From assembly GCA_964597575.1 (NCBI GenBank), contig CAZQXB010000001.1:594511-658510 (forward strand): DNA of 64,000 nt, given 5' to 3'. The stretch's first letter is position 1. Each line of letters begins with the position of its first letter. The position numbers and the translations under genes were made by a program. Below the pieces are notes generated by a model. The model did not search any database. It was not told the origin of the DNA and was given only the letters and a program-made list of their open reading frames with translations. The stretch comes from an uncultured Gammaproteobacteria bacterium. GTDB lineage: Bacteria; Patescibacteriota; Patescibacteriia; Magasanikbacterales; UBA922. Below are positions 7,814 through 62,950 of this stretch, one piece after another.

Positions 7814-8504
7814 TGGCTAATTCAGGTCCAGCAGTTTTAACCATTTTGCCTTTTTTCAAAAGGTGAACGGTATCAGGCGTCACGTACTCTAAGATTCGGG
7901 TGTAGTGGGTGATGAGAAGAACTGCGGTATCTTTCGAACGGAAACGGGAAATTGCTTCCCCTACAGCCCTGAGACCATCTACATCAAGCCCAGAATCGGT
8001 TTCATCGAGGATAGCATACTTCGGGCTGAGCGTAAAAAGTTGGAGCATTTCAAGACGCTTTTTTTCTCCCCCGGAAAAACCCACATTGACCGAACGCGAG
8101 AGTGCCTCTTTTCCGAGCCCAAGTTTCTCTCCTTCGGTAATAAGAGTTCGGTGGAACGGAAGCGGGGCCACATGCTCGCCCGTGAGTGATTCTTTGGCGG
8201 TTCGTAAAAAATGGGAGATGCCTACACCATCAATTTCTGGTGGATATTGCATCGAAAGAAACAGCCCGCTCTTCGCTCGTTCATGCACCTTAGCGTTCGT
8301 GATCTCTTTTCCATCAATCGTAATCGATCCCCCGGTTATGGTATATTTTGGATGACCCATGAGGACGTTGGCAAAGGTTGATTTCCCTGAACCATTTGGG
8401 CCCATGAGGACATGTACCTCCCCTGGTGAAATAGTAAGATTGACTCCATCCAGAATGGGAGTGCTACCTGAAGAAACACTGAGATTTGAAATGTGGAGAG
8501 ACAT
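7776..8504 (-). CDS. sufC: Fe-S cluster assembly ATPase SufC
   Basis: MSLHISNLSV... then GPNGSGKST (Walker A), the ABC signature LSGGEKKR and Walker B ILDETDSGLD. The ATG at 8504 lies immediately after the sufU stop. Confidence 0.9.
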   Translation of the reverse strand: MSLHISNLSVSSGSTPILDGVNLTISPGEVHVLMGPNGSGKSTFANVLMGHPKYTITGGSITIDGKEITNAKVHERAKSGLFLSMQYPPEIDGVGISHFLRTAKESLTGEHVAPLPFHRTLITEGEKLGLGKEALSRSVNVGFSGGEKKRLEMLQLFTLSPKYAILDETDSGLDVDGLRAVGEAISRFRSKDTAVLLITHYTRILEYVTPDTVHLLKKGKMVKTAGPELANDIDTHGYGSYT

Positions 8505-11463: not shown

Positions 11464-14400
11464 TTAAATACCGGTGTACGGAACAGAAGCCGAATATGCG
11501 GAACACGAATTTGTGGCTTGGTTGTAGGCGCAAAGACGAAGATAAATGGTACCGGTGGGAAAATTAAGCTCACCGCGATTAATGTAGACTTCGTTGTTTC
11601 CAGCAGCGCGCGCATAGGCTATTACACCTGACCCATACAGAGTAGGGTTGTTTTGCAGAGAGAAGAGAACTCGAAATTCTTGGTTTCCTGTCCAGTATGC
11701 GTATGCAGATGAGTTGAGAACTGTTAACGCATAGCTGTCCCCACTGCTTACCGGAGGGGTTGTTGGATTGGGTGCTGGCGAAGGGCTTGGAGTTGGTCCT
11801 GGTGTAGGAGATGGTGGGGGTGGCGGAATGGGTGCTGGAGAGCCTCCGCGACCAACCCACGAACCTCCGAATTCACAGCCTGTCCACCAGCACGGTGTAC
11901 CAAGAGCAAAATTTTCAAGAGCCGTAAATTTCGGAGCTTCGCTGTGTGATTGATTTTGCGAAAGGAGTGCTCCGAAATTTCCGTACCGAGTTTGAGGGGT
12001 GACGTCAACGAAATGAACAAATGTTTTTCCACCACGCTCTCTCCAGCCATTCAGGTATTGGGTGTAGAGGGCTCCCATTCGTGGATCGTTGTTTGCATCT
12101 CGAAAAAGAGCTTCGACCGTTGCATTATTTTCGTTTGCTCCATACGCAATAAGATGCTGCCCACCTTCGTATGCAATGAGATCGATTCCTGGGTACGATT
12201 GTCGAAGAAATGTATTATCATCGCTCATTTCCTGAAAGGCCTGAGGTAAATCTATCGACTGCAATTGATCGAAGATTTGATTGAGTGTCATGCTTTGTGT
12301 GGCCGATGAACCACTTAGTCTGTTTCCAAAGTATGGTGCTGTGGCAACCGCATCAATATTCTGATACGCGTTTCTCCAGGAGAGCAGGTTGCCTGTTCTC
12401 CAGGTGTTTCCCGTAAACGAGCCCATCACTCGCACTACGCGACCGTTTACACCAAATACGTCACGGAAAATTTGTCCAACTTGAACCGATCGTTCACTAA
12501 ATTGCCGCATTTCACCCATACCACAAGCTTGGATGTACCGGAGTGGCCACGGATGACCCTCACAATAGACACCGTTTCCTGGGTTTGCATCCTGATCACA
12601 CTCCGCTTGAAGATCAGGATTATTCTGACACCCTCGTGCCGCTAAAATTTGCTGCTGGAGGATGTATGGGTACGCACCATTCCACGATTCGTTCGAATAC
12701 TCAACAAAGATGCGACTGTTTGAGTTAATGGCACCGCGAATACGGGAAGCAATATCCCGCACAAGGGCGTCCGATGCATTTACCGGAATGTTAATCCACA
12801 AATCAGCCTGAAGGGTATTTGAGAACTCAGCAAGAATTTCTGGTGGGGTCCGAACCCAGTGAGCATCAGTGACGCGTGTAAGGTCACTCACGTTTACCAC
12901 ATTTTCAATACCTGCTTCATTTATCCCCCATTCTTGCATAAAACGCACAACGCTTGTTGAGCGATTATTACGAAGGTATGTCGGGTGAAACAGTTGTGGG
13001 TTTGGGGTGTCCGCAAAAATACGGCACGTATTTGATCCTCCGCACTGGCTGTTTGTTGTGCAGTACTGTGTTTGATCATTTGAGCACGATCCGCCTGGAG
13101 GGTATACGCGAATGTTTCTAATATAGTTATTTGGGTTCGTTGAACTAATTTCTAGCATGACAGTCGTTTCAAAGGCGGAGCGAGTTACATCGATCACATC
13201 ACGCCCTGGCCTCGACAAATCAGCATTTCGTGTACCTCCGGAATATACTATGACCCCTTCACCGTCATAGAGAACGGTATATCTACCTGTCGGATAAAAA
13301 GTTGAAGGGTTTGTTGAGCCTGCAACATTCGTTACGAGTGCGGTACGGATAATATTTGTTCCCGGAACATTATTTGGAACAGATCGTACCCATCCGTTAC
13401 TATCAAGATTGACTGCCGGACCACAGTTCCAGCATGCCTCGACAGTTCCGTTTCCTATAATACCAGAAGCCCATGGTCGTGATGATTTAAACAAATCTAC
13501 AAAAACCCAGTTCGCCCCGAAGTCAATAAGGGAATGAGTATTTGTTCCGATCGCGGATCGATAATTCGCCAAACTTCCAGATGGTGGAGGGCTCACTGGT
13601 GCTGGTGGAGGTACTGGAGCTGGAGGTGGCGGAGGTGTCGTTGGAGGAGTAGCAGGGGGTGCTGGTGGAGCAACAGGAGGTGTCGCCGGTGGGGGTGGTG
13701 GCGGTGTTCCGGGTGGAGCTGGAGGTGGCGGAGGTGTCGTTGGAGGAGTAGCAGGGGGTGCTGGTGGAGCAACAGGAGGTGTCGCCGGTGGGGTCGTTCC
13801 CCCTGCTGCGTTTACGGTAATTGAGGTCGGTCCTGAAGTCGTCTCTTGGCCGGAATTATCCCGAGCCCGGACAGATAGCGAGTGAGCTCCACGCGTTGGA
13901 TTCACCCAATTAAATACAAACGGCGAAATGGTGTCACGACGCAAAAGATTGGTGCCATCAAAAAACTCGACGTACGATATAGACCCGTTTGCATCGCTGG
14001 CTGTCGCCTCAAGCCGAACTGTTGTCGGTAGTGTAAAAACAGAATTTGCAATAGGGCTTGTAAGTGAAACTCTCGGTGCACCAGGGGTGGGTAACGGAAC
14101 AGGGGCGGGCGGAGGAAGAGGGACCGTCGATCCTGGAGATGGTGCGGGTGGAGTTGGAGGGGTAATCGGGCGAGAACTTGTTGCGTCCGCAAATACCCGT
14201 GCCAACGGAATTGTCGCTACATGATCAAGGCGAAATTGGTAAACGTTAGTCACCTCCTCGGCCGAGGTAATATACCGCTTTGCTAAAGATGAAGCAGTTT
14301 GACCGCTCGTAGAAACGGATTCTAAAGCGTACACTTTGGGATCGTTTTGATATTTAAAAAGAAGATTTGATGGGAGCGTATCAACCGTTGTAATGGCGGG

Positions 14401-14883
14401 CAACACCGTATATTTTTGAAGCACGACCGGGGTAACATCCTCAATTTGATCAAAAGAAAAGCCTAAAACATTCAGAAATGTATTTTCAGATTCAATAGGA
14501 TGTATTGAAGAGTTACCAAGAACTATGTAGACCTTTGGGTCTGTCACGGTTTTAAGTAAGGATCCGTTTGGATATACTCTTCGATGACCCCAAGGAAGAA
14601 AGGATAACTCGTGATTAGGTATGCGAGCGAGTGTTTGAGCATTTGTTATCCGAACGTCACTCCATGATGCAAAATGAGAAAAATAAACCTGCGAACTTTT
14701 AATTGGGCGTTTTTTACAGTCTTCTGAGATGTAATAGACTGCTGGGTTGTTAGGAATTTTATATGGTTGCAAAATGGTCAGCGGGCAATTTGTTGAGGTT
14801 TGGGATATTGCCGGGGCAACAAATACCACTCCGAGAGATGCAAATAGGGCCAAACCCAAAGAGAGAAGATGAGAACGACGCAT
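11464..14883 (-). CDS. Large secreted multidomain protein: signal peptide, Ig-like domain, Pro/Thr-rich linkers, putative clan GH-A glycoside-hydrolase-like core, C-terminal beta domain
   Basis: The ATG at 14883 gives MRRSHLLSLGLALFASLGVVFVAPAISQ, a signal peptide. PTPPAP linkers flank an Ig-like segment (SVRARDNSGQETTSGPTSITV). The core carries VEYSNESWNG (resembling the GH-A acid/base xExxNEx motif) and LIAYEGGQH (a nucleophile-like motif). The final PT-rich linker is followed by a beta-rich tail. Confidence 0.75.
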   Translation of the reverse strand: MRRSHLLSLGLALFASLGVVFVAPAISQTSTNCPLTILQPYKIPNNPAVYYISEDCKKRPIKSSQVYFSHFASWSDVRITNAQTLARIPNHELSFLPWGHRRVYPNGSLLKTVTDPKVYIVLGNSSIHPIESENTFLNVLGFSFDQIEDVTPVVLQKYTVLPAITTVDTLPSNLLFKYQNDPKVYALESVSTSGQTASSLAKRYITSAEEVTNVYQFRLDHVATIPLARVFADATSSRPITPPTPPAPSPGSTVPLPPPAPVPLPTPGAPRVSLTSPIANSVFTLPTTVRLEATASDANGSISYVEFFDGTNLLRRDTISPFVFNWVNPTRGAHSLSVRARDNSGQETTSGPTSITVNAAGGTTPPATPPVAPPAPPATPPTTPPPPPAPPGTPPPPPPATPPVAPPAPPATPPTTPPPPPAPVPPPAPVSPPPSGSLANYRSAIGTNTHSLIDFGANWVFVDLFKSSRPWASGIIGNGTVEACWNCGPAVNLDSNGWVRSVPNNVPGTNIIRTALVTNVAGSTNPSTFYPTGRYTVLYDGEGVIVYSGGTRNADLSRPGRDVIDVTRSAFETTVMLEISSTNPNNYIRNIRVYPPGGSCSNDQTQYCTTNSQCGGSNTCRIFADTPNPQLFHPTYLRNNRSTSVVRFMQEWGINEAGIENVVNVSDLTRVTDAHWVRTPPEILAEFSNTLQADLWINIPVNASDALVRDIASRIRGAINSNSRIFVEYSNESWNGAYPYILQQQILAARGCQNNPDLQAECDQDANPGNGVYCEGHPWPLRYIQACGMGEMRQFSERSVQVGQIFRDVFGVNGRVVRVMGSFTGNTWRTGNLLSWRNAYQNIDAVATAPYFGNRLSGSSATQSMTLNQIFDQLQSIDLPQAFQEMSDDNTFLRQSYPGIDLIAYEGGQHLIAYGANENNATVEALFRDANNDPRMGALYTQYLNGWRERGGKTFVHFVDVTPQTRYGNFGALLSQNQSHSEAPKFTALENFALGTPCWWTGCEFGGSWVGRGGSPAPIPPPPPSPTPGPTPSPSPAPNPTTPPVSSGDSYALTVLNSSAYAYWTGNQEFRVLFSLQNNPTLYGSGVIAYARAAGNNEVYINRGELNFPTGTIYLRLCAYNQATNSCSAYSASVPYTGI
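13619..13792. repeat. Tandem direct repeat, 2 x 99 bp, encoding a duplicated 33-aa Pro-rich linker
   Basis: gctggaggtggcggaggtgtcgttggaggagtagcagggggtgctggtggagcaacaggaggtgtcgccggtgg occurs at 13619 and again at 13718. The protein repeat is ATPPVAPPAPPATPPTTPPPPPAP x2. Confidence 0.8.
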
Positions 14884-14967
14884 AGACAAAAAAAGATAAT
14901 GCCCCTATGACAAAGGGTACCAAATTAAAGAACTATTCGCAATTTTTTATCCTCTTTGTCGCCTTCT

Positions 14968-19411: not shown

Positions 19412-20011
19412 CTAAAAGGGAAGAGTAAGATTGAGACTACTTCCACCCTGCGCACCACCTTGGTGAGCAACCTGCACTTGTGGAGAAAAATCAAAGTTTA
19501 CTGCGAGCGGACGGAGTTCTCCGGTGAGTGTTGTGTAGTAGAGCATTTTATTTTTTCGACCGTACTCGTAGAGCTCCTTCGTAACCTTCACATCTTGCTC
19601 ACAGTACTTTTTAATTTCATCCAGCTTTCCTTCAGCGAACCACTGCATAGCTTGAAGCCCATCAGCGCTTTTTTCAATTTGAAGCGTGGCCTTGGCCAAA
19701 TCATTAAGCTTGTATCGTGAACCATTCATTTCTTTAATCACTTTCAGCATGTCGAGGTGCGGAAAGCGTGTGAGATCACCAGCGTAGTATTTATTGAGTA
19801 CCGGAATATCAAAATGTTCGCTGTTAAAACCAATCAACCGTTCCGCACGTTCAAAAATCGGCCAAAGTTCTTTTAATTCATGCTCCTCGAATGATTGGTA
19901 GGTGTCTGTTTCATATTGATAAATGGAAACAACCGTCATTTTGAGAGAATCAAACTGTTTAATATCCCCAATTGTTTCAATATCAAAAACGACTTCGCGA
20001 CTTGGATTCAT
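19412..20011 (-). CDS. DEDDy-type 3'-5' exonuclease (DnaQ/RNase D-like)
   Basis: Exo I VVFDIETIGD, Exo II GFNSEHFDIPVL and Exo III YCEQDVKVTKELY. The start is taken as the internal ATG MNPSREVV. Confidence 0.6.
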   Translation of the reverse strand: MNPSREVVFDIETIGDIKQFDSLKMTVVSIYQYETDTYQSFEEHELKELWPIFERAERLIGFNSEHFDIPVLNKYYAGDLTRFPHLDMLKVIKEMNGSRYKLNDLAKATLQIEKSADGLQAMQWFAEGKLDEIKKYCEQDVKVTKELYEYGRKNKMLYYTTLTGELRPLAVNFDFSPQVQVAHQGGAQGGSSLNLTLPF

Positions 20012-20018
20012 AGAAGTA

Positions 20019-20372
20019 TTATTGGACTTTCTTGAAATTGACTTTAAACACGGGCTGGTAGGTATTTTCGTACTCATCTTTCACCTCCACCGTCTCCCCT
20101 TTCATGAGTTGGGTCATCGCCATATCGGTCAGTACCTCAGTATCACTCGCCATGTCAATTTTTAAATCATCAAGCTTCGTCAGTTCATTCGCAAAATTTT
20201 CCTTTACCGTTTGTTCAATTTGTTTTTTCTTTTCTCGAAGAGTGGTGAGTTTTTCCGTTACCTCCTGATACTCAAGTGAAGTCTCAAGAGCATCTTTGTA
20301 GGCGGCACGCAAATCTTTTTGTTTCTTTTTATTCTCTTGGAGACGAGCAAAAATTTCTTGAACAGATTGCAT
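20019..20372 (-). CDS. Hypothetical coiled-coil protein
   Basis: 117 aa with K/E-rich heptad-like sequence and no recognisable family. Confidence 0.4.
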   Translation of the reverse strand: MQSVQEIFARLQENKKKQKDLRAAYKDALETSLEYQEVTEKLTTLREKKKQIEQTVKENFANELTKLDDLKIDMASDTEVLTDMAMTQLMKGETVEVKDEYENTYQPVFKVNFKKVQ

Positions 20373-20434: not shown

Positions 20435-22069
20435 TTACCGAGTACACGCAGCCACAAACGCTAAAAAGAGAGGGTGGGGCTCCATCGGGCGAGATAAAAA
20501 TTCAGGATGGAACTGAACCCCAACAAAGAATGGGTGGTCTTTCAGTTCAACAATTTCAACCAAATCTGTTTCTGGATTCACCCCGACAATTTGTAATCCA
20601 GCAGCATCAAGGGCATCTCGATATCCATTATTTAATTCGTACCGGTGGCGGTGGCGCTCTGAAATGATATCGGCTTTGTAAGCGGCATGGGTTTTGGTGC
20701 CTCGTCGTACCGCGCAATCGTATGCCCCGAGACGCATTGTACCTCCGTAGCGATTCTCTTTAACATTTTTCGCCTGCATCGGATTAATATGGATAATTGG
20801 ATCTGGAGTTTTCTCTGCAACTTCAACTGTATGAGCTTCTTTTTTCTGAAGTACATTGCGAGTAAACTCAACACAGGCAAGTTGCATACCATAGCAGAGG
20901 CCATAATAGGGAATCTTCTTCTCTCGGGCAAACCGAATGGCAGTCATAATTCCCTCAACCCCCCGTGCACCGAAACCACCTGGCACAAGCACACCATCAT
21001 ACTCACTTAGCTCCTCAACCTTTTTTATATTTTTTTCATAGGCTTCTGCGTCAATCCAGGTGAGCTCAGGTTTCCGCTTTTGTGCCCAAGCAGCATGTTT
21101 GATTGCTTCAATGACGGAAATGTAAGAATCCGCAAGTGTAAAATTTCCGGTACCAAAATATTTTCCAATGACTGCGATTTTAACAGGCTTTTCACTCGTT
21201 TCAATAGAACGGACTAATTTTTTCCATGATTCCATTTTCGAAGGACGCGTACGAAGTTCGAGAACCTTTAATAACTTGTTTCCAGCCTCCTGAGCTTCCA
21301 TACGAAGCGGTATTTCATAAATGGAAGAAACATCCGGGGCCGCAATACAGTTTTCTTTAGAAACTCCGCAAAAAACTGCTAATTTTTCTCGTCGAATTTC
21401 ATCGAGGGTTGTTTGTCCACGAGCAATAATCATGTCTGCTTGAATACCCGCATTATTCAGTGCCCGTGCCGCATGTTGAGTTGGTTTTGTTTTCATTTCA
21501 CCGAGGTGTGATGGAACAGGAAGATAGCTGACCAGCACAAAGGCAACACTCGACGGATCTTTTAACTTCATCATGCGGGCGGCTTCGAGAAAAAGAATAT
21601 TTTCATATTCACCAACCGTTCCACCAATTTCGATAATCGTAATATCTGCTTTATCCTTTTTCGCAGCAGTCTCAATACGACGGATAATTTCTTCCGGAAT
21701 ATGGGGAACCACCTGGACGCATTTCCCTTTATACTTCATGGCGCGTTCATTTTCGATAACGGTTTTGTACACTCGACCCGTTGTCATGTAGTTATCTTTC
21801 GATAAGTTGATGTTCAAAAAACGTTCATAGTTCCCCATATCTTGATCTGTCTCATCTTTATCATTCGTTACAAATACCTCACCGTGCTCGATTGGATTCA
21901 TCGTACCAGCGTCCACATTCACATACGGGTCAGCCTTAAGAGCGGTCACCGAAAAACCTTTCGCACTAAAAATTGCGCCCAAAGACGCCGAAGTAACTCC
22001 CTTACCCACCCCCGAAAGAACGCCTCCGACGACAAAAATGTATTTCTTCTTGGCTTTATTTTTTTTCAT
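20435..22069 (-). CDS. pyrG: CTP synthase
   Basis: 544 aa with the N-terminal synthase domain (VVGGVLSGVGKGV) and the C-terminal GATase domain (GLCYGMQ, HPEF). Confidence 0.95.
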   Translation of the reverse strand: MKKNKAKKKYIFVVGGVLSGVGKGVTSASLGAIFSAKGFSVTALKADPYVNVDAGTMNPIEHGEVFVTNDKDETDQDMGNYERFLNINLSKDNYMTTGRVYKTVIENERAMKYKGKCVQVVPHIPEEIIRRIETAAKKDKADITIIEIGGTVGEYENILFLEAARMMKLKDPSSVAFVLVSYLPVPSHLGEMKTKPTQHAARALNNAGIQADMIIARGQTTLDEIRREKLAVFCGVSKENCIAAPDVSSIYEIPLRMEAQEAGNKLLKVLELRTRPSKMESWKKLVRSIETSEKPVKIAVIGKYFGTGNFTLADSYISVIEAIKHAAWAQKRKPELTWIDAEAYEKNIKKVEELSEYDGVLVPGGFGARGVEGIMTAIRFAREKKIPYYGLCYGMQLACVEFTRNVLQKKEAHTVEVAEKTPDPIIHINPMQAKNVKENRYGGTMRLGAYDCAVRRGTKTHAAYKADIISERHRHRYELNNGYRDALDAAGLQIVGVNPETDLVEIVELKDHPFFVGVQFHPEFLSRPMEPHPLFLAFVAACTR

Positions 22070-22130
22070 ACAATGCTTGAAGCTATGTTGAATAGGAGTA
22101 TAGCAGAAAGAACGACTGTATGAAAATCTA

Positions 22131-22159
22131 TTGACAAATTACCTAAATTATGCTATATT
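22131..22159 (+). promoter_or_regulatory. Sigma70-like promoter TTGACA-17-TATATT for the GC-rich island gene
   Basis: TTGACA at 22131-22136 and TATATT at 22154-22159, followed by the strong SD aaggag at 22207-22212, 9 nt before the ATG at 22222. Confidence 0.5.
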
Positions 22160-22221
22160 TTGCACGCTCTCTTTAGCATGTTCCCATCGTGGCACGCTAT
22201 AGGAGTAAGGAGTTAAGGACA

Positions 22222-22818
22222 ATGAGAAAAGCAACAAAGGGCGCGAGGGTCCTGTGGATCGGAATGCTGGTCACCCTCGGGGCCCTCTGCCTCGCAGGGC
22301 CCGGCTGTGGCGGGACGGAGGAGAGCTCGCTTGAGGAGGAGCACTCCGAACTGTTCGGCAGCCCAACGCCGCAGCAGCGGTGCTTGCCGAGCTACTGCAC
22401 ATCACTCAACAAGGAGGTGCCGTTCCCACGGGTCATGTTGTGGTATCATGAATCCGATCCCCGGGGAGGTCAGCCCTGGCTGGGGACGCCGCAGGGTCAG
22501 TGCGTGGATGGTAGTGGTGGATCATTCGGCATCTACTACACTCCACAAGACCTCGCTGATGAATTTTCGCGGCATAGACACCAGTTCATTCAGCAGCCAA
22601 CCACACCGGGAAAACTGACCAGATTCACCAACAACTCCACTTACGGAATCACCGTAGTCTATATTCAGGGTGACTTCGACAACAGCGTCAGGCCGCTTAA
22701 CTACATAGGGCCAGGGCAGCAGCGAGCGCTGCCTACTCCAAGTGGCACAGATCGGTTCAAGGTCTATATCAATGGCGCCGGCACTTCGCTCGTGAACATC
22801 GCCGACGTGTGCAATTAG
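22222..22818 (+). CDS. Secreted Cys-containing protein of unknown function encoded on a GC-rich island
   Basis: MRKATKGARVLWIGMLVTLGALCLAGPGCGG is a signal or lipoprotein-like peptide. The ~170-aa mature part has 5 Cys and no family match. Codon usage is GC3-rich, unlike its neighbours, and it carries a strong SD, which is absent from host genes. Confidence 0.6.
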   Translation: MRKATKGARVLWIGMLVTLGALCLAGPGCGGTEESSLEEEHSELFGSPTPQQRCLPSYCTSLNKEVPFPRVMLWYHESDPRGGQPWLGTPQGQCVDGSGGSFGIYYTPQDLADEFSRHRHQFIQQPTTPGKLTRFTNNSTYGITVVYIQGDFDNSVRPLNYIGPGQQRALPTPSGTDRFKVYINGAGTSLVNIADVCN

Positions 22819-22977
22819 TCGACATCTGAGCAACTAGTATTACTGGGCATACCTGCTACCTAAATGCATTACCAGCATGCACCGCAGTTGAAGTCAGCCA
22901 CACCAGTTGCCGACTCCTGCCCATCTCGCGCCGGTCGCAAGCAGTGAACACAACTCGTTCCCTGTACCGGCCCCCTA

Positions 22978-23008
22978 TAAAAGAGCTTTTACGAAGGCTC
23001 TTTTTTGG
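22978..23008 (+). terminator. Putative terminator (agagcttt-tacg-aaggctct, then TTTTTT)
   Basis: An imperfect hairpin plus T-tract that closes the GC-rich island. Confidence 0.4.
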
Positions 23009-23045
23009 TCTTTGGGGTAATTCTCAAAAAACTACTCTTTCCTCT

Positions 23046-23074
23046 TGACTTTTTGGCTAAAATACGCTACACTA
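23046..23074 (+). promoter_or_regulatory. Promoter TTGACT-17-TACACT for era
   Basis: Read from the sequence, 20 nt upstream of the era ATG. Confidence 0.4.
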
Positions 23075-23094
23075 CGAGGTATTCTTTTTTGCCT

Positions 23095-23967
23095 ATGAAA
23101 TCCGGATTCGTCGTCTTAGTTGGACGAAGCAATGTTGGAAAATCAACTCTCATGAATACCCTTGTCGGGACAAAGATTTCCGCAACGTCTTTTCGTGCAC
23201 AAATGACTCGTCATATTATTCACGGAGTCATGAATATGCCAGATGGCCAGGCTATTTTTGTCGACACTCCAGGGATGTTTAAAGACCGCCGTAATGCCCT
23301 TACTGCCCGTTTAACCGGAAAAGTAAGCGAAGCCCTCAAAGACATTGATGTTATTGTGTATGTGGTCGACCCGACTCGTGAAGTAGGTCCGGAAGAACGT
23401 GCGATGTACGGCATGATTCGCCACTTATCGAACCCGAAACTTTTAGTGATTAATAAAAGCGACCTTCCCCCACGTGATCGCCCTCATACCCGTGAGTATG
23501 AAGCCTGGGCTGAAGATTTTGCAGGAGTATTTTATCTTTCAGCGCTTCGTGCAAGCCACATTCAACCTCTCAAAGAGAAGGTAATGGAACTTTTGCCAGA
23601 AGGTGAACCTCTCTATCCTCCCGACCAGCTTACAAACATCGACAACCATTTTTGGATTGCGGAAATTGTTCGTGAAAAAGTATTTTCTATTTTTGATAAA
23701 GAAGTGCCTTATTCCATGGCAGTCGAAGTTGATACGGTTGAAGAAAAGACCTTTGGAAAAGGTGATGCCGCTGTCCCTGGACTTGCGATAAAAGCCAGAA
23801 TTTTGACCAATGAAGAACGGTACAAACGAATAATTATCGGGGCACGAGGGAACAAAATTAAGGAAATCGGCCAAATGGCACGCAAGGAACTCGAAGCCTC
23901 AACCAACCGTAAAGTATTTCTTGAACTTGAAGTAGAGGTTGACACACACTGGGTTGAACGAATCTAG
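23095..23967 (+). CDS. era: GTPase Era
   Basis: MKSGFVVLVGRSNVGKSTLMN (G1), DTPG (G3), NKSD (G4) and a C-terminal KH domain (ARGNKIKEIG). Confidence 0.9.
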   Translation: MKSGFVVLVGRSNVGKSTLMNTLVGTKISATSFRAQMTRHIIHGVMNMPDGQAIFVDTPGMFKDRRNALTARLTGKVSEALKDIDVIVYVVDPTREVGPEERAMYGMIRHLSNPKLLVINKSDLPPRDRPHTREYEAWAEDFAGVFYLSALRASHIQPLKEKVMELLPEGEPLYPPDQLTNIDNHFWIAEIVREKVFSIFDKEVPYSMAVEVDTVEEKTFGKGDAAVPGLAIKARILTNEERYKRIIIGARGNKIKEIGQMARKELEASTNRKVFLELEVEVDTHWVERI

Positions 23968-29525: not shown

Positions 29526-29581
29526 GTAAAATAAAGAGAGACCGGACCGAGCGAAGGATGTTACTCCTCCGCTCGGCCGGT
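29526..29581 (-). terminator. Strong GC-rich rho-independent terminator inside the GC-rich insert, just upstream of the pilD start
   Basis: An 11-bp stem with one bulge (ccggaccgagcg / cgctcggccgg), followed on the minus strand by TCTCTCTTTATTTTAC. Confidence 0.6.
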
Positions 29582-29707
29582 CCCGTGGGCGATCATCCTC
29601 GACCTGAGCCTCCGCTCACGGTCATGTCACTCGACGTTGCCCACGTGGGAACGACAGTGGCGAGGAATGAACCCCACTCGATCAGACAGGCCGGCGCCGG
29701 GCGCGGG

Positions 29708-29803
29708 TCAGCTGATCACGATGGTGCCGGCGCGGTTGCTCTCGAGCTTGCAGTGCTTGTAGTAACAGGTGTTCTGCACCTCGGTCGGGTCGTGGTTGCG
29801 CAT
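29708..29803 (-). CDS. 31-codon ORF with strong SD in a GC-rich insert (MRNHDPTEVQNTCYYKHCKLESNRAGTIVIS)
   Basis: Manual translation. The SD aaggaga lies 4 nt upstream of the ATG, and GC is about 60% against a ~40% background. There is no family assignment, so this could equally be a non-coding structured element. Confidence 0.3.
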   Translation of the reverse strand: MRNHDPTEVQNTCYYKHCKLESNRAGTIVIS

Positions 29804-29869
29804 CGGTTCTCCTTGGTGTCCTTGGCGAAGGCGTCTCCTGCACTGGGCAGTACAGACGCGGTTGATAAA

Positions 29870-29908
29870 AAAAGAATAAAATAAATCACCCTCTTTGTCA
29901 AGAGGGTG
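29870..29908 (-). terminator. Rho-independent terminator for the DUF368 gene (caccctctt-tgtc-aagagggtg, then U-tract)
   Basis: A 9-bp perfect stem. On the minus strand it is followed by ATTTATTTTATTCTTTTT. Confidence 0.6.
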
Positions 29909-41917: not shown

Positions 41918-44434
41918 CTAAGCAGCTATGGCGATTGGTGTCTGCGGTACAGAGTGTTGAAGAATACTCCTCACATTTCCTTCAATCACCTCTTCCAATT
42001 CACTTGGATTATACCCACGAACGCGACCGAGAAGAGACTCTACTTGACCCCGAGTTCTCGCCGTAATTTCTTTTTTAAATTCTTCGCCAATTTTTTCTTT
42101 CCCTTGTGGCACCATCTCTGGTTTCAAAGTAGCGCCGTCGGTTTGTTTTGCAACATCGCGTACATATGTTCTTTCTTCAAAGCCTTTTTGGTCGGGCGTT
42201 TCTTTTCTCTCTAGCCCAATTTTTTCAGTAGTTTCAAACTTCAACGACACCCCTTCACTTGTGGTTTTTTCAGGAACCGTATGATTCGTGTCTAATTGGT
42301 CTATGTTTTTTTCGGCAACCACAACCTCTTTTACAACAGTTTCTTGTCTTAAAGATACAGAAGGTGAAAACAGCACCGCAGGTTCCGAGGTGGCGGTTCT
42401 TTCCTTATCCGTATTATTCACGATTTCTACTATGCCCACATCTTCCAAAGAAGGCGTTTCAGAAAATTCGACCATCTTTGTAACAGGAATAACTTGAGCT
42501 TTTTCCACAATATCCTTTTCAGTTGCTTCAACTACTTGAGCTACAAACACCTCTTCCATCACGAACACTCCTTCAGAATTATTTTCATAATCCTGAACTT
42601 GGCCAGACTCTTTCTCCACTATTGCTATACCAGATACATCGTCAACAATGGGCAGGTAAGTTTCTTTTCCCACTCCTAGCACCCCAGAAAGAGTAGTGGG
42701 AAGGGAAACAGGAGCCACACTCTCAATATCGGTATCAGTAATTGCCTGCTCCACGAGCCCAATACCAGTTTCCTGCCATACCGCTTGCGCAGTTTCAGCA
42801 AAAGTTTCTTCCTCCGCTACTAAATTTTCTTTTCTCTCAGATACTGTCGTTTCTGTAACAGAAAAAGGGGTAGATTCGATAGAAGCTGAAGAGTTATCTA
42901 CCTCAACCATCGGGAAAACTTCCGTGTCAAAAATAAGTGTTATCGCTTCTGGGGTAGGAGTTGCAGTATTACTTTCTCTCTTAAAATCCGTGACGCGCTC
43001 ATCCCTCTCTACAACTTCCGTATCTCCCTTTTCATGGAAAGAAAAAGTCTCTTCAAAAGAAGTGTCGGCAACCACAATAGACTCTGGGGCAAAATTTTCT
43101 CTTTCGCCCACTGTCATTTTTTTAATATGAAGAGAATTTTCACCTTCTTCAGAACTTGATGCACTTTTTTCTATGTCATCTCTCAGAATAGGGGCCACAT
43201 CTACATAGTGAGAAAAAGAAGACATCTCTGACTCTCCTACCAGACCACGCGAAACATCATATGTTTCTAACTCAATACCAGAAGAGACTTTTATCTCTTT
43301 TGTTTGGAAAGAGGGATCTTCCGGAGTTTGAACTTCTAAAAAAACAGGAACACCTTCTGAAATCTCAAAAGATTGACCTTCCTTTTCAAGGGTAATGCCG
43401 AGCAGCTCCCCCTCTGTTTCATAAACATGCTGAATAACTTCACTGCGTGGGGCATGAACTTGCCGTGCAACATCTCCTAATTCTAGAATCTGAGGAATGA
43501 GTTCATGATTCTCCTCTACAGAAGCCGCCTCGTCTACACCTTCTTGTTCTAATGAAGGGGTGGTAAAAATTTCTTTAGGTAACATTATCGGCGACACCTC
43601 ACCTAAAAAAGGTTGCTCAAATTTTTCAGTTTCAAAAACATGAGATTCTTCAGGCGCAGCAAACATCCGATCAAACCAGGAGTTCTGTTCCTCCGTAGTC
43701 TCTAGATTACCATTCTCGGGTAAGGACAGTTCCACACCCGTGGCGATTACGCCAGATACATCATGGTGCTCTAAAGATTCCTGCCAGATAGGGGTTAAGT
43801 TAAGTTCAATGCCCTGCGTACTTAAATCAACCACCGTTCCATCACCCTCTTCATCAAGCTCGCCATCATTCGCTACCCTCTCCGCAGACACAGGGACATC
43901 ACGAGTAAATCCATACATTGCAATCTTACCATCAGCAGTCACCCACATTTTTGATATATGCCACACCTCTTTATCACCTTTTTGTTCGACATGCTTTCCA
44001 ATATGCTCTGATCTCGGACCCTCCTGAAGGGCCCCCCGCATTCGTTCGTGGTACGCAATCTCCTCGGCTGTACCGGTCTCATGCACACCCTTGGTAACAT
44101 CGTGCTGTGTTCTTGGTACGAATAAATGCCCGGTAGTTGCATCAAACTCCATTTGTCCCACATTGTCAGAAAATTCTACACTCCACTCAGACATCTCCCC
44201 ACCAAACATCGTTCGAATTTCCTCTAAAGCAGATTCCTGAGTGGGAGGAGTATACTCCTCAGAGACGCTAGCTGGCTCTCGTTCATTCTGCAAAGCCAGC
44301 TCTCCAGAATCAGGGGATGCTGGAGGAAGCTCAACTGAATTTGGCGCGCGAAAAGGACTACCCTCACTAGAATTGGGAAATTGATCTTCTTCAGGCTCTT
44401 TTTCAATTCTCTGTTGTCCGTGGAGTTCTCGCAT
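41918..44434 (-). CDS. 838-aa hyper-acidic, low-complexity (E/D/S/T/V-rich) protein with a short globular N-terminal region
   Basis: Acidic residues dominate throughout. There is no TM or signal peptide. Residues ~90-180 (FDATTGHLFVPRTQHD...WHISKMWVTADGKIAMYGF) look globular. It is first in the operon. Confidence 0.6.
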   Translation of the reverse strand: MRELHGQQRIEKEPEEDQFPNSSEGSPFRAPNSVELPPASPDSGELALQNEREPASVSEEYTPPTQESALEEIRTMFGGEMSEWSVEFSDNVGQMEFDATTGHLFVPRTQHDVTKGVHETGTAEEIAYHERMRGALQEGPRSEHIGKHVEQKGDKEVWHISKMWVTADGKIAMYGFTRDVPVSAERVANDGELDEEGDGTVVDLSTQGIELNLTPIWQESLEHHDVSGVIATGVELSLPENGNLETTEEQNSWFDRMFAAPEESHVFETEKFEQPFLGEVSPIMLPKEIFTTPSLEQEGVDEAASVEENHELIPQILELGDVARQVHAPRSEVIQHVYETEGELLGITLEKEGQSFEISEGVPVFLEVQTPEDPSFQTKEIKVSSGIELETYDVSRGLVGESEMSSFSHYVDVAPILRDDIEKSASSSEEGENSLHIKKMTVGERENFAPESIVVADTSFEETFSFHEKGDTEVVERDERVTDFKRESNTATPTPEAITLIFDTEVFPMVEVDNSSASIESTPFSVTETTVSERKENLVAEEETFAETAQAVWQETGIGLVEQAITDTDIESVAPVSLPTTLSGVLGVGKETYLPIVDDVSGIAIVEKESGQVQDYENNSEGVFVMEEVFVAQVVEATEKDIVEKAQVIPVTKMVEFSETPSLEDVGIVEIVNNTDKERTATSEPAVLFSPSVSLRQETVVKEVVVAEKNIDQLDTNHTVPEKTTSEGVSLKFETTEKIGLERKETPDQKGFEERTYVRDVAKQTDGATLKPEMVPQGKEKIGEEFKKEITARTRGQVESLLGRVRGYNPSELEEVIEGNVRSILQHSVPQTPIAIAA

Positions 44435-44705
44435 AATTAAAAACGCACCTCTCCCGAGGTGGTCAAAAAATATACTGAGATAGATATTTCCTGCTCGGGA
44501 TGTCTACACTATTTGGCGATCTGACTCCTTTAGGCTGCCCTAAAGATTACAGTTGCGGCACAGTACCGGAATTTCACCGGACTTCCCCAAATAGCTGCTC
44601 AATTGTGTGTCCATTGTATCTCGCGCATCGAGCGGTGTCAAACGTCCAAATATCACAAAAAAATATTCACTACTGCGTACACTAAAATGGTTATCCACAC
44701 CGTAT

Positions 44706-48043: not shown

Positions 48044-48072
48044 TTGACAGGAGTCTCAAAAAATGCTACTAT
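48044..48072 (+). promoter_or_regulatory. Sigma70-like promoter TTGACA-17-TACTAT for the GC-rich 94-aa gene
   Basis: The hexamers are at 48044-48049 and 48067-48072. The ATG at 48087 is about 8 nt past the predicted start site. Confidence 0.45.
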
Positions 48073-48086
48073 TTCTGCTCAAGAAA

Positions 48087-48371
48087 ATGCCAACACAATC
48101 ACGGTTTAGCACCATCAGAGGTGCCCCATACACACCGCGCCCAGGAGATCGGATTCTCTGGGACAAAAGAAACCATGTCATCACAGTTCGTCCGGAAGGC
48201 TCGTCAGCTGCGGTTCTCGTGGACGGGAAGATGACTGTTTCGACCAAGGGAATTACCGGAACCGCAGCCATGAAGCTTATCGAGGAGCTTGCAAAGGCGA
48301 GCGGCAACGGCGTGCGGTTCGCACAGGAGGAGTACCTTACCGAAATCTACGAACTGCGCTCAAGCCCCTGA
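48087..48371 (+). CDS. 94-aa protein of unknown function on a GC-rich island
   Basis: MPTQSRFSTIRGAPYTPRPGDRILWDKRNHVITVRPEGSSAAVLVDGKMTV.... GC is about 56-58% against the AT-rich background, and there is no family match. Confidence 0.5.
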   Translation: MPTQSRFSTIRGAPYTPRPGDRILWDKRNHVITVRPEGSSAAVLVDGKMTVSTKGITGTAAMKLIEELAKASGNGVRFAQEEYLTEIYELRSSP

Positions 48372-48379
48372 ACGCTCTC

Positions 48380-48415
48380 CCTCAGGCCCGACCCTCGATT
48401 GGTCGGCGCCTGAGG
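48380..48415. terminator. GC-rich ~14-bp hairpin (cctcaggcccgacc...ggtcggcgcctgagg) without U-tract; possible terminator or 3' stabiliser
   Basis: Read from the sequence, between the convergent island gene and the NUDIX gene. Confidence 0.35.
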
Positions 48416-48436
48416 ACCCTATACCAAGCCAATATT

Positions 48437-48895
48437 TTAAACCCCTTTGGGGCTTTTTTCATTTATATGACGTTCAAACGAATACTGCCCTGCAAATTTT
48501 TTCACAGTCATATACACATTCTCTTTCAGCGCCTCCTCTTTCGTAAAAAATCGAGTTTCAACACACTCAGATGAAGGTGTAATGACCATGTCCGCTACAG
48601 TCGTGAGGTAGAACACATTTACCACCCACCGACCGGAATTTGGTGAACGCCCCGTAATAAAATAAAGGGGGAAATCCCCAACTGAAGTAACCACTAACCC
48701 CATTTCTTCTTTTACTTCTCGCACCAATCCTTCTGCAGGACTCTCACCAAAATCTAATCCTCCACCCGGAAAGTCCCACAATCCACTCTCTTCTTTACAG
48801 AGCAAAAAACGCCCTTCAGAATCTAAAATGAGAGCTTTGACACTCACCCGGTAAAAACAATTGGGGATATTCTCGTGTTCAAACATATTTTGCAT
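48437..48895 (-). CDS. NUDIX hydrolase
   Basis: Nudix box GGGLDFGESPAEGLVREVKEEMGL. Confidence 0.8.
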   Translation of the reverse strand: MQNMFEHENIPNCFYRVSVKALILDSEGRFLLCKEESGLWDFPGGGLDFGESPAEGLVREVKEEMGLVVTSVGDFPLYFITGRSPNSGRWVVNVFYLTTVADMVITPSSECVETRFFTKEEALKENVYMTVKKFAGQYSFERHINEKSPKGV

Positions 48896-48926
48896 GTACA
48901 CCTCCTAAGGTGTAACTAGAAAATTG

Positions 48927-60536: not shown

Positions 60537-62222
60537 TTAATATTTTAATTCTGATAAATAATTAGCGACCTTTTTATCAATTGCTTCGCGGGTTTTTTCA
60601 ATCTCCCTCACTTCACTCCACACCGTTTTTACATCCACCACCTCTTCATCTTCGCCATTTTCTACATAGCGACGTACGTTGAGATTGAACTCGTTTTCTT
60701 CGAGCTCCTTAATATCCACCACGCGAGCGTATTTTTCAATATCTCGGTAGCTTTCAAATGCTGACACCATTTTCTCGATATCCTTCTTGCGTAGGCGGTT
60801 TTGATTTTTTCCTTCCTCGTAATCTTGCTCGGCATCAATGATAAGGATTTTATCCTTATGATTCTCTGGCTTGTTTTTGTTGAATATCACAATTGCCGCC
60901 GGAATACCTGTACCATAGAAAAGTTTTGCAGGAAGAGCGATAATGGCTTCTATAAGATCGTTCTTGATAAGTTCCTCACGGATACGACCTTCGGCACCTC
61001 CACGGAAAAGCACGCCATGCGGAAGCACGATGCCGGCGCGGCCGTTTTCGTTCATTGACTTCACCATGTGGAGCACAAAAGCGTAGTCGGCTTTTTTTGC
61101 CGGAGGCATTTCGTAGCCCGCCACTCGTCCATGTTTGTCATTCTTGAATATCTCATACTCCCACTCGCTTATGGAGTAAGGCGGATTGGCAACACAAATA
61201 TCAAATGTCTTGAGCGAGCCGTCAGGATTGAGAAACTTTGGATCAGCAAGTGTATCTCCGCGTTGAATGTTGGCACTATCAAGTCCATGGAGGAACATGT
61301 TGATTTTCGCAATCGCGTATGTCCCGATGTTTATTTCCTGTCCGTAGAGGTAGAGTGAGCGAGCTTTCTTTTCTCCTGCGCTCAGTCTGAGATGGTGATA
61401 GGCCTCCAAGAGGAAACCACCCGAGCCGACCGCCATGTCGTAGATGTGGTCTTTCTCGTGGGGCTTAAGGATACTGACGATCACACGCTCAACTTCCCGC
61501 GGAGTATAAAATGATCCTCCTTTTTTTCCGGCGTCCGCGGCGAACTGCGCAATTAAATACTCGTAAGCATCGCCAAGTAAATCAGTGCTTATGTAATTGT
61601 CACCAAAATTATACTTAGAAAAATGATTGATTAACTTTTGCAGAACCTCGTTTGGAAATTTGTCTTTGTTGGCAAAATCAAGGTCATCAAAAATCTTGTC
61701 CAGCTTCGGACTGTTGGCATTGGTTAGCTTATCAAAAATTTCGTTGAGCTTGTGGCCGATACCTTCGGCTTGTTTTTGTATGACTTCCCATCGACATTCC
61801 TTTGGAACCTGAAACTTGTGATTGTGATCCGCCTTGGCTATTTCTTCATCATGATATTCCTCAAGAATTTTTTTGTATTCTTCGTCCCACACATCACTAA
61901 TTCGTTTATAGAAAAGAAGACCAAAAATATATTTTTTATAATCTGCACTATCTATTCTGTCGCGCAAAATATCTGCACTACTCCAAAGGAATTGCTTAAG
62001 CTGTGTTAGGTCCATTTTTCCTTCATCATCAGTCAGTGGCGCACCGAGATCTTTGACAATGCTTTTGTCATTAGCTATTTTTTCCAAATCTTCAGGACGA
62101 TATTTTCTGTCACCACGGGGACCAACACGCATAGGAGTAATCAAACCTTTTTTCTCCCAATTCCTCAATGTGTCTTTATCTAGACCAAAAATCTTTGCCA
62201 CCTCACTAATCGAAAGTAACAT
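60537..62222 (-). CDS. hsdM: Type I R-M N6-adenine DNA methyltransferase with N-terminal MerR/excisionase-type HTH fusion
   Basis: N-terminal ISEVAKIFGLDKDTLRNWEKKGLITP (HTH_17-like), then an HsdM_N-like helical region, the AdoMet motif DMAVGSGGFL and the catalytic NPPY (VANPPYS). Confidence 0.9.
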   Translation of the reverse strand: MLLSISEVAKIFGLDKDTLRNWEKKGLITPMRVGPRGDRKYRPEDLEKIANDKSIVKDLGAPLTDDEGKMDLTQLKQFLWSSADILRDRIDSADYKKYIFGLLFYKRISDVWDEEYKKILEEYHDEEIAKADHNHKFQVPKECRWEVIQKQAEGIGHKLNEIFDKLTNANSPKLDKIFDDLDFANKDKFPNEVLQKLINHFSKYNFGDNYISTDLLGDAYEYLIAQFAADAGKKGGSFYTPREVERVIVSILKPHEKDHIYDMAVGSGGFLLEAYHHLRLSAGEKKARSLYLYGQEINIGTYAIAKINMFLHGLDSANIQRGDTLADPKFLNPDGSLKTFDICVANPPYSISEWEYEIFKNDKHGRVAGYEMPPAKKADYAFVLHMVKSMNENGRAGIVLPHGVLFRGGAEGRIREELIKNDLIEAIIALPAKLFYGTGIPAAIVIFNKNKPENHKDKILIIDAEQDYEEGKNQNRLRKKDIEKMVSAFESYRDIEKYARVVDIKELEENEFNLNVRRYVENGEDEEVVDVKTVWSEVREIEKTREAIDKKVANYLSELKY

Positions 62223-62405
62223 ACTTTATATACTATCTTTTTAATATTTCATATGTTATCATAGGTTCATTGTTTCCGTCAAACTTTTTACAAAAATTCA
62301 TAAGTTTTCATAGGTTAGAGGGTTTTTACCTCTTGCCATCCTCCGCCCCACTGAGGTGGGAACCTTCCGGTTCCCAAACCCCTGTTCGAATCCACTCTAC
62401 CCAAA

Positions 62406-62443
62406 AATTATATAAGAGCACCATGAGGCGCTCTTATATAATT
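62406..62443. repeat. Palindromic element copy 2: aattatataagagc-accatgaggc-gctcttatataatt
   Basis: 14-bp perfect arms with the same ATAAGAGC core and CAAAAA / TTGCGG flanks as copy 1. Confidence 0.75.
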
Positions 62444-62950
62444 GCGGTGTGTATTGGACGAAGTTCGAATGTATTTCGGGAAAAATCCGCAGGATTTTGA
62501 CTGATTCGCACGCGCGGAGCGCGTGGTGGCTTTGACCCAAATCGTACGCTCCGATTGCCTGGTGAAGCGAACCAATGCGCCTCGGACACGCTCGCGGACT
62601 CGCGTGTGCAAAAGCCAAAAAAATTTCCTTGCATTTTTCTCGCGTCTCCTCCCCCCACCCCTCCGCCGCGAAGCGGAAAAAGAAATGGAAAGGAAATTTT
62701 TTGGTTTTGCTTCGCCGTTTCAGTCTCCAAAAAGAGCATCTCTATTTTATCACTTTTGATATGCTCTTTTCTCTGCCTTCACGGCGACCGAGGCGCACCT
62801 CCTATCCGCGTTCGGTGGTAACTCGGTACTCCGCGAACCACGCACAAGTGCCTACGCATAGCCCGCTCGCATTCGCTCGCGCTGGCTGCTTCGGCATTGT
62901 GCGTGTTCGCTCGGTGGCTTCGTTGGAGTAGGTGGTAACTCTAAAAAGAA

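What the first reader, a model, noticed from the sequence alone, without database searches (positions are those of the whole stretch)
22131..23008. GC-rich island 1: self-contained gene for a secreted Cys protein with foreign-looking expression signals
A ~0.9-kb block between pyrG and era has much higher GC and GC3-rich codons than all flanking genes. It carries its own consensus promoter (TTGACA-17-TATATT), a strong SD (aaggag with 9-nt spacing) and its own terminator. Strong SDs are essentially absent from the host genes in this window. The 199-aa product has a signal or lipoprotein-like peptide and 5 Cys with no recognisable family, so it could be a toxin, bacteriocin, adhesin or effector.
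Basis: seen in the sequence. Interest (0 to 1): 0.6.

Follow-up and report, generated by a model that had tools for sequence, protein, structure and literature searches.

The report
Foreign GC-rich orphan gene cassette
A small, self-contained gene with foreign-looking (GC-rich) composition sits between pyrG and era in a tiny-genome Magasanikbacteria (CPR) bacterium and encodes an exported protein with no detectable relative; it is most likely a horizontally acquired accessory gene and is only moderately unusual.

Summary
Window 22222-22818 (+) is a 198-aa ORF with GC 0.58 and GC3 0.69. The 49 host genes have GC3 0.40 +/- 0.04 (z = 7.9, codon-usage z = -5.1). It has the best sigma-70 match in the window (TTGACA-17-TATATT with TG), an AAGGAG SD and a hairpin terminator. 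Host genes show no SD signal above background. The product has a clear Sec-type signal peptide, a non-canonical lipobox (A-G-P-G-C29) and six Cys. No credible relative turned up in Pfam, NCBIfam, PHROGs, PADLOC, PDB, phage or plasmid records, or two very large protein libraries. The host is a Candidatus Magasanikbacteria bacterium. In 69 related loci rplI (L9) sits next to era, 59 of them with pyrG too; here rplI is absent from that slot. The closest relative (Era 84%) has a different, unrelated GC-rich orphan cassette (GC3 0.96) directly upstream of era, confirmed in two independent assemblies. The same layout recurs twice more in this window and in other Magasanikbacteria. Best reading: a horizontally acquired, phage-moron-like accessory cassette for a surface or secreted protein in a variable slot. 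Its function is unknown. It is not a structured RNA, and a chimeric assembly is unlikely.

The parts
22131..22159 (+). Promoter of the cassette: -35 TTGACA (22131-22136), a 17-nt AT-rich spacer, TG at 22151-22152 and -10 TATATT (22154-22159)
   Evidence: 11 of 12 positions, with TG. (best promoter match of all 50 gene upstream regions in the window). (the pattern TTGACA-N14-TGNTANNNT occurs 3 times, against 0.04 expected).
22166..22221 (+). Inferred 5' UTR of about 56 nt, containing the SD AAGGAG at 22207-22212 (9-nt spacing to the ATG)
   Evidence: Sequence. SD duplex energy -8.7 kcal/mol, in the top 1.3% of random positions. The transcription start is inferred from the -10 box and has not been measured.
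22222..22818 (+). Coding sequence of a 198-aa orphan exported protein (the stop codon TAG is included)
   Evidence: GC3 0.69, periodicity p = 0.0003, ORF length p = 0.016. (no family and no credible homolog).
22222..22308 (+). Signal peptide region (aa 1-29). The n-region is MRKATKGAR (+4 charge), the h-region is VLWIGMLVTLGALCLAG, followed by P-G-C29. It is a possible lipoprotein with the non-canonical lipobox A-G-P-G-C.
   Evidence: Hydropathy (1.95-2.18 over residues 11-26). The lipobox assessment rests on inspection against consensus patterns recalled from the literature.
22819..22978 (+). GC-rich 3' UTR (GC about 0.53) that belongs to the foreign block
   Evidence: No Rfam match. The fold z-score of -2.6 is mostly due to the terminator.
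22979..23008 (+). Intrinsic terminator: AAAAGAGCTTT-TACG-AAGGCTCTTTT followed by a T run. It is symmetric (A run upstream), so it is potentially bidirectional.
   Evidence: (I8).
20435..22069 (-). Left flank: pyrG (CTP synthase), host composition (GC3 0.38)
   Evidence: 66-75% identity to the pyrG gene next to rplI-era in relatives.
23098..23967 (+). Right flank: era (GTPase), host composition (GC3 0.39). Its own promoter TTGACT-17-TACACT is at 23045-23073.

Best explanation
Island 1 is a horizontally acquired, self-contained accessory gene cassette. It resembles a phage 'moron', but it sits in the core chromosome of a Candidatus Magasanikbacteria (CPR/Patescibacteria) bacterium. It occupies the slot upstream of era that holds ribosomal protein gene rplI in most relatives.

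How it most likely works (inferred unless stated otherwise). A near-consensus extended -10 sigma-70 promoter drives a monocistronic mRNA of about 840 nt, which ends at its own hairpin terminator. Host genes lack any SD signal, and many look leaderless. This GC-rich mRNA instead starts translation through a strong SD. The 198-aa precursor is exported by the Sec pathway through a classical n/h/c signal peptide. It is then either cleaved near residues 26-31 or lipid-anchored at Cys29. That would leave a tethered or secreted domain of about 170 aa with an acidic N-terminal linker and four Cys, enough for up to two disulfides. A beta-rich fold is hinted only by a low-confidence model.

The protein would act at the cell surface as a strain-specific accessory factor. 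My best guess is a surface-protection or partner-interaction protein of the kind that moron-encoded lipoproteins often are.

Shown here: the atypical composition, the coding signal, the expression signals, the signal peptide, the absence from the orthologous site in relatives, and the recurrent architecture. Inferred: the HGT origin (no donor was found), expression, export and function.
For: Composition and codon usage are extreme outliers.

The block is coding and not a structured RNA. The periodicity has p = 0.0003 and the ORF length p = 0.016. There is no Rfam hit. The whole-transcript fold z-score is only -1.5.

The expression signals are real and are the strongest in the window. The signal peptide is evident.

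The host was identified as Magasanikbacteria from Era hits. In 69 related loci rplI lies next to era, and 59 of these also carry pyrG. None encodes a relative of the island protein. No rplI was found anywhere in the 64-kb window.

The closest relative (L037/L001, Era 84%) has an unrelated 256-aa orphan ORF (GC3 0.96) at the same position, with TTGACA-17-TATAGT and its own terminator. DNA homology to the window starts exactly at the era start codon. That junction is present in two independent assemblies that are 99.5% identical over 1653 bp.

The same architecture (consensus promoter, long leader and/or strong SD, high-GC3 orphan ORF, terminator) is seen at window 29530-29875 (-) and 48044-48460 (+), and in L031 and L055.

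For one such relative cassette (the L031 362-aa ORF), homologs at 40-57% identity exist. One of them lies on a uniformly 60-69% GC contig, L090. This shows that high-GC donors exist for this class.
Against: No donor or homolog of this particular protein exists in about 15 billion public proteins. The HGT argument therefore rests on composition and synteny alone.

There are no mobility hallmarks: no tRNA, integrase, or flanking direct or inverted repeats.

The promoter and terminator have host-like AT-rich composition. How a foreign ORF came to be framed by them is unexplained.

The lipobox is non-canonical. Structure prediction failed (pLDDT 35), so nothing supports any specific function. Expression is unmeasured, and read support across the junctions could not be checked.
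Confidence: 0.62

Rival explanations
1. Assembly chimera or contaminant: a fragment from a higher-GC organism was wrongly joined into the Magasanikbacteria contig.
For: There is a sharp GC shift. The closest relative's contig L001 breaks inside its own GC-rich block, so assemblers do struggle at this place. I had no read data.
Against: The foreign body of about 0.8 kb is framed on both sides by host-like sequence inside a 913,817-bp contig. A chimera would therefore need two precise false joins. The joins also fall exactly so that a host-type promoter plus SD precedes the ATG and a terminator follows the 3' UTR. The analogous island-era junction in the sister species is reproduced in two independent assemblies. 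The exact protein is recorded from both NCBI and Logan sources.
Confidence: 0.05
2. Native, lineage-specific, fast-evolving gene whose odd composition is not due to transfer. For example, selection or mutation bias could have acted on a highly expressed surface-protein gene.
For: The promoter and terminator are host-like. No donor was found. Surface proteins of CPR bacteria are often orphans.
Against: No host gene in the window has GC3 above 0.49, yet this one has 0.69. The untranslated 3' region is also GC-rich, which codon selection cannot explain. The gene is absent from the same slot in all 69 loci that carry rplI there. The sister species has a different, unrelated, even more GC-rich gene at this site.
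Confidence: 0.12
3. The ORF is not functional as a protein. The block would be dead foreign DNA, or a non-coding RNA transcribed from the strong promoter.
For: GC-rich intergenic spots in AT-rich genomes are often RNA genes. Long ORFs arise more easily in GC-rich DNA. No homolog supports the reading frame.
Against: There is codon periodicity in exactly the ORF frame (p = 0.0003) and the ORF is unusually long (p = 0.016). An SD sits at the correct spacing and the N-terminus is a textbook signal peptide. There is no Rfam match even at E <= 5, and the fold z-score is -1.5.
Confidence: 0.1
4. Specific functional sub-hypothesis: the protein is a moron-type surface lipoprotein that blocks phage adsorption or DNA entry (superinfection exclusion). 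An alternative version is that it mediates attachment to a partner cell.
For: The moron-like architecture fits. The protein is small, exported and possibly lipid-anchored. The site is a variable hotspot with different cargo in sister species. Phage morons commonly encode such functions (PMC2920897 and my own knowledge of Llp, Ltp and Cor).
Against: There are no PADLOC or PHROG hits. There is no prophage context. No fold model is available. The idea is purely analogical.
Confidence: 0.15

Closest known systems
Phage/prophage 'morons' (Hendrix and colleagues; criteria as summarised in PMC2920897)
   Same: A single extra gene inserted between two conserved neighbours. It has its own promoter and factor-independent terminator, and its GC content differs from the surrounding genes. 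The insertion site behaves as a hotspot that carries different cargo in related genomes. The cargo is often an orphan or a surface protein.
   Different: The neighbours here are housekeeping chromosomal genes (pyrG, era) and not phage genes. No prophage is evident. The cargo has no relative in any phage or other genome. The host is an SD-poor CPR bacterium and the cassette brings a strong SD.
Compositionally atypical genomic islets / ORFan genes acquired by horizontal transfer
   Same: GC and codon usage are atypical, the gene is absent from the orthologous locus in relatives, and it has no assigned function.
   Different: The unit is very small (one gene). It has no integrase, tRNA or repeat boundaries and no identifiable donor. 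Its regulatory ends have host composition while only the transcribed body is foreign.
Moron-encoded superinfection-exclusion lipoproteins (T5 Llp, TP-J34 Ltp, phi80/N15 Cor; from my own knowledge)
   Same: A small exported protein with a lipoprotein-like N-terminus, encoded by an independently transcribed accessory gene.
   Different: There is no sequence or fold similarity. The lipobox here is non-canonical (A-G-P-G-C). The function is untested.

Membership tests
Phage moron | Own transcriptional control (promoter and/or terminator) | tested here: met
   TTGACA-17-TATATT with TG, 11 of 12 positions, plus a hairpin terminator at 22979-23004.
Phage moron | GC content different from the surrounding genes | tested here: met
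   GC 0.58 against 0.44; GC3 0.69 against 0.40 +/- 0.04, z = 7.9.
Phage moron | Inserted between adjacent genes of a phage or prophage genome | tested here: not met
   The flanks are pyrG and era, conserved neighbours across Magasanikbacteria. There are no PHROG hits and no match in phage or viral collections.
Phage moron | The same moron is found in other, unrelated phages or genomes | tested here: not met
   The only credible hit is the protein itself, in searches of 5.8 billion protein clusters and 1.84 billion cluster representatives.
Phage moron | Hotspot behaviour: different cargo at the same site in related genomes | tested here: met
   The sister species L037/L001 carries an unrelated cassette (GC3 0.96) directly upstream of era. 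Other relatives have extra genes in the pyrG-rplI-era interval.
Horizontally acquired genomic island | Atypical composition together with absence from the orthologous locus in relatives | tested here: met
   None of 88 related loci encodes a relative of the protein.
Horizontally acquired genomic island | Mobility hallmarks (integrase, tRNA target, flanking direct repeats) | tested here: not met
   There is no tRNA in the window. There are no meaningful flanking direct or inverted repeats. The unit contains only one ORF.
Horizontally acquired genomic island | Identifiable donor lineage (homologs with matching composition) | tested here: not met
   There are no homologs. A donor-type high-GC contig was found only for a different cassette, the one in L031.
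Sec-exported protein | Tripartite signal peptide (positive n-region, hydrophobic h-region of 10-20 residues, polar c-region) | tested here: met
   MRKATKGAR, then VLWIGMLVTLGALCLAG, then PGCGG. Hydropathy is about 2 over residues 11-26. No dedicated predictor was available.
Bacterial lipoprotein (Lgt/Lsp substrate) | Canonical lipobox [LVI][ASTVI][GAS]C at the end of the h-region | tested here: inconclusive
   Cys29 is preceded by A-G-P-G. Gly at -1 is acceptable, but Pro at -2 and Gly at -3 break the strict consensus. The sequence fits only permissive Gram-positive patterns that I recalled from memory.
Bacterial lipoprotein (Lgt/Lsp substrate) | Actual lipid modification and Lsp cleavage | not testable with these tools
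   This needs labelling or globomycin experiments.
Structured non-coding RNA | Match to a known RNA family, or folding clearly better than shuffled sequence | tested here: not met
   Rfam at gathering threshold and at E <= 5 gave nothing relevant. The z-score is -1.5 for the 845-nt transcript.

The most novel reading that the evidence does not exclude
Magasanikbacteria chromosomes may carry a distinct class of chromosomal 'morons'. These would be single-gene or few-gene cassettes taken from high-GC partners (possibly the host organisms these episymbionts live on, or the hosts' phages). Each is framed by a near-consensus native-type promoter, a strong SD that native genes do not use, and a terminator. 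They insert recurrently at hotspots next to core genes such as era. If this is true, the cassettes record who these unculturable bacteria exchange DNA with. They would also reveal a dedicated route for putting foreign genes to use in an SD-poor, largely leaderless translation system.
Probability: 0.25. Interest if true: 0.7.

Novelty: new variant of a known kind. Interest (0 to 1): 0.42.

Why it matters
On its own this is one more orphan gene acquired by transfer, which is a common thing. Three points give it some value.

1. It shows a reduced CPR genome (a contig of about 0.9 Mb) taking up and apparently expressing foreign genes at a core-genome hotspot. That hotspot normally holds a ribosomal protein gene.

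2. The cassette uses SD-led initiation in a genome whose own genes show no SD signal. This is a natural contrast for studying how translation starts in CPR bacteria.

3. If the recurrent GC-rich cassettes come from the hosts of these episymbionts, they could help identify those hosts, which are unknown for Magasanikbacteria.

Tried and rejected
1. Family assignment. Pfam, NCBIfam, PHROGs, PADLOC and PDB sequence searches gave only noise.

2. Distant homology. The exhaustive phmmer search returned two tail-fibre-like repeat proteins (P0002 at E = 1e-11, P0003 at E = 5e-4). The score is the sum of up to 13 near-identical repeats, each aligning at about 30 bits and 26% identity around a short PTxP...TNNS motif. 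I rejected this as homology evidence.

3. Structure. AlphaFold2 without an alignment gave pLDDT 35 for both the full-length protein and the mature part. No fold search was run, because matches to such a model would be meaningless.

4. Non-coding RNA reading. Rejected.

5. Mobile-element boundaries. None were found.

6. Phage, plasmid and viral origin. No matches.

7. Shared expression platform. I tested whether the promoter/5'UTR or the terminator is homologous between the window and the sister species. The alignments look random, so there is no evidence for a conserved platform with swapped cargo.

8. Exact-protein look-ups of the island protein, Era and PyrG, intended to find conspecific contigs. 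Nothing was on record.

9. The 13.5-kb GC peak. It is a Pro/Thr/Ala-rich linker inside a large protein and not an island.

10. Literature. A search for Magasanikbacteria, HGT and GC content found nothing.

Full report
**What is there**

The window averages 44% GC. Between pyrG (20435-22069, minus strand) and era (23098-23967, plus strand) lies a plus-strand ORF, with ATG at 22222 and stop at 22816-22818, encoding 198 aa.

The ORF has GC 0.584. Only 0.09% of equal-sized windows reach that value. Its GC1/GC2/GC3 are 0.57/0.49/0.69. The 49 other long ORFs in the window have GC3 0.395 +/- 0.037 with a maximum of 0.486, so the island is 7.9 sd away. Its synonymous codon choice scored under the host model is 5.1 sd below the host mean. 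The GC-rich stretch begins in the 5' leader at about 22185 and continues through the 3' UTR to about 22975. The promoter and terminator lie in AT-rich DNA.

**Is it a gene?**

The GC3 excess in exactly this frame has a shuffle p of 0.0003. An open stretch of this length in the shuffled block has p = 0.016. AAGGAG lies 9 nt before the ATG. The N-terminus is a textbook signal peptide: MRKATKGAR, followed by a 17-residue hydrophobic core, followed by PGCGG.

Rfam finds nothing at the gathering threshold or at E <= 5. The 845-nt transcript folds no better than shuffles (z = -1.5). I conclude that it is protein-coding and not a structured RNA.

**Expression signals**

TTGACA-17-TATATT with a TG extension (22131-22159) matches 11 of 12 positions. 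It is the best promoter match upstream of any gene in the window. The hairpin at 22979-23004 plus a T run is a plausible intrinsic terminator.

The SD duplex energy at host start codons averages -1.5 kcal/mol, the same as at random positions (-1.7). Only 4 of 49 genes reach -6 or lower. The island scores -8.7, in the top 1.3% of random positions. Many host genes have a -10-like box only 7-30 nt before the ATG, which suggests short leaders or none.

The promoter itself, however, is of the same type as the host's. Examples are era (TTGACT-17-TACACT) and pyrG (TTTTCA-18-TATACT). It also lies in host-like AT-rich DNA. Only the SD and the transcribed body look foreign.

**The protein**

The precursor has six Cys (positions 23, 29, 54, 59, 94, 197), an acidic linker after the signal peptide, and then a domain of about 150 aa. 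Hints of beta structure come only from a low-confidence model. Cys29 is preceded by A-G-P-G, which is not a canonical lipobox, so lipid anchoring is possible but unproven.

No family was found in Pfam, NCBIfam, PHROGs, PADLOC or PDB. The 5.8-billion-cluster search returned only the protein itself, from a 913,817-bp contig recorded by NCBI and Logan. Exhaustive phmmer against 1.84 billion representatives added only two repeat proteins, whose score is an artefact of summed repeats. Phage, viral and plasmid collections gave nothing. AlphaFold2 without an alignment failed (pLDDT 35).

**Context in relatives**

Era places the genome in Candidatus Magasanikbacteria, within the CPR. Of 88 related loci, 69 have rplI (ribosomal protein L9, about 148 aa, minus strand) directly upstream of era, and 59 of these also carry pyrG. 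The median gaps are 107 nt (pyrG-rplI) and 165 nt (rplI-era).

The window has no rplI in that slot or anywhere in its 64 kb. Whether L9 was moved or lost cannot be told from this window. One relative (L011) has pyrG and era adjacent with only about 240 nt between them and no rplI. That is effectively an empty site. Several relatives carry extra genes inside the interval, so the slot is variable.

**The sister species**

L037 and L001 (Era 84%) are two independently assembled contigs, 99.5% identical over 1653 bp. Directly upstream of era, L037 carries a block of about 0.9 kb at about 64% GC. The block has TTGACA-17-TATAGT, a leader of about 70 nt, a 256-aa ORF with GC3 0.96 and its own terminator.

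This ORF is unrelated to the window protein and is also an orphan. Window-to-L037 DNA homology begins exactly at the era start codon. The flanking regulatory sequences do not align. Two sister lineages therefore hold different foreign cargo at the same place. This argues strongly against an assembly artefact and for an insertion hotspot.

**A recurring architecture**

Two more units in the window have the same layout.
- 29530-29875 (minus strand): TTGACA-17-TATTCT, AAGGAG, a 31-aa ORF with GC3 0.94, a long 3' UTR and a strong terminator.
- 48044-48460 (plus strand): TTGACA-17-TACTAT with TG, an ORF of about 94 aa with GC 0.56, and a terminator.

Other Magasanikbacteria loci show the same pattern.
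- L031: TTGACA-17-TATACT, SD TAGGAGGTG, and two ORFs with GC3 0.93 and 0.86.
- L055: TTGACG-17-TATATC, SD AGGAGG, and an ORF with GC3 0.76 just downstream of era.

None of these ORFs has a Pfam domain. The L031 362-aa ORF has ten homologs at 29-57% identity. One of them lies on a uniformly 60-69% GC contig (L090). Another lies in a mosaic contig (L089), among SD-led GC-rich genes next to a MoxR-VWA module. For at least one member of this class, then, a genuinely high-GC gene pool exists.

**Interpretation**

The unit meets three of the usual descriptors of phage morons as summarised in PMC2920897: it has its own promoter and terminator, its GC content is deviant, and its site behaves as a hotspot. 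It fails two others, namely phage context and occurrence elsewhere. I therefore call it moron-like and do not class it as a moron.

The most likely history is insertion of foreign DNA into a variable intergenic slot, with retention because the gene is expressed and useful or harmless. How the foreign body came to be framed by AT-rich host-type signals is not explained by my data. I also could not find the donor.

The proposed function, a surface or secreted accessory protein possibly involved in phage exclusion or partner interaction, is an analogy only.

**Verdict**

As a single item this is a fairly ordinary orphan gene acquired by transfer. The hotspot behaviour, the displaced rplI and the recurrent SD-led GC-rich cassettes in an SD-poor CPR lineage raise it to moderate interest.

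Noticed in passing
window 29530-29875 (minus strand): A second GC-rich (about 0.6-0.66) self-contained unit. It has TTGACA-17-TATTCT, AAGGAG, a 31-aa ORF MRNHDPTEVQNTCYYKHCKLESNRAGTIVIS (GC3 0.94), a GC-rich 3' region of about 150 nt and a strong GC-rich terminator hairpin. There is no Rfam match. It could encode a small peptide or be an RNA gene.
   Followed up: partly
window 48044-48460 (plus strand): A third unit of the same layout, lying antisense to its neighbours. It has TTGACA-17-TACTAT with TG, an ORF of about 94 aa (MPTQSRFSTIRGAPYTPRPGDRILWDK...) with GC 0.56, and two hairpins of which the last is a terminator. There is no Rfam match.
   Followed up: partly
window 22070-23097, compared with 69 related loci: Ribosomal protein L9 (rplI), which lies between pyrG and era in most Magasanikbacteria, is missing from this slot and from the whole 64-kb window. 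It is also missing next to era in the sister species L037 and in L011 (pyrG and era adjacent). Loss and relocation cannot be distinguished here.
   Followed up: partly
whole window (49 host ORFs): Host genes show no Shine-Dalgarno signal above background. Many have a -10-like box 7-30 nt before the ATG, which suggests leaderless or short-leader mRNAs. Only 3-4 genes (for example 19412-20077 and 48437-48901) have strong SDs.
   Followed up: partly
window 44506-44605 (minus strand): An AdoCbl-II (cobalamin) riboswitch, 42 bits against a gathering score of 36.5. It lies upstream of the 838-aa ORF 41918-44434.
   Followed up: no
window 62230-63050: An 0.8-kb stretch without a convincing ORF, next to a type I restriction-modification methylase gene (60537-62222). 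It is full of long imperfect hairpins (for example 62391-62458 and 62611-62708) and has a 30-nt direct repeat (62238 and 62287). There is no Rfam match, and its nature is unknown.
   Followed up: partly
window 13501-13975 (inside ORF 11464-14889, minus strand): The strongest GC peak in the window is not an island. It is a Pro/Thr/Ala-rich linker (PPATPPVAPPAPP repeats) in a 1141-aa secreted-type protein: GC2 is high and GC3 is normal.
   Followed up: yes
L089 about 2150-2232 and about 7920-8000: Two GC-rich SD-led genes on this mosaic contig share a near-identical 5' leader element (GAAAGCAnCAnGAAT(T)GTTCGTGGTGTAAAA) with a small hairpin. This may be a shared regulatory element of such cassettes. 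The neighbouring genes are a MoxR-VWA module.
   Followed up: no
L037 1-1170 (minus strand): In the sister species the gene to the left of the GC-rich cassette is not pyrG. It is a secreted lipase-like protein, so the neighbourhood has been rearranged as well.
   Followed up: no
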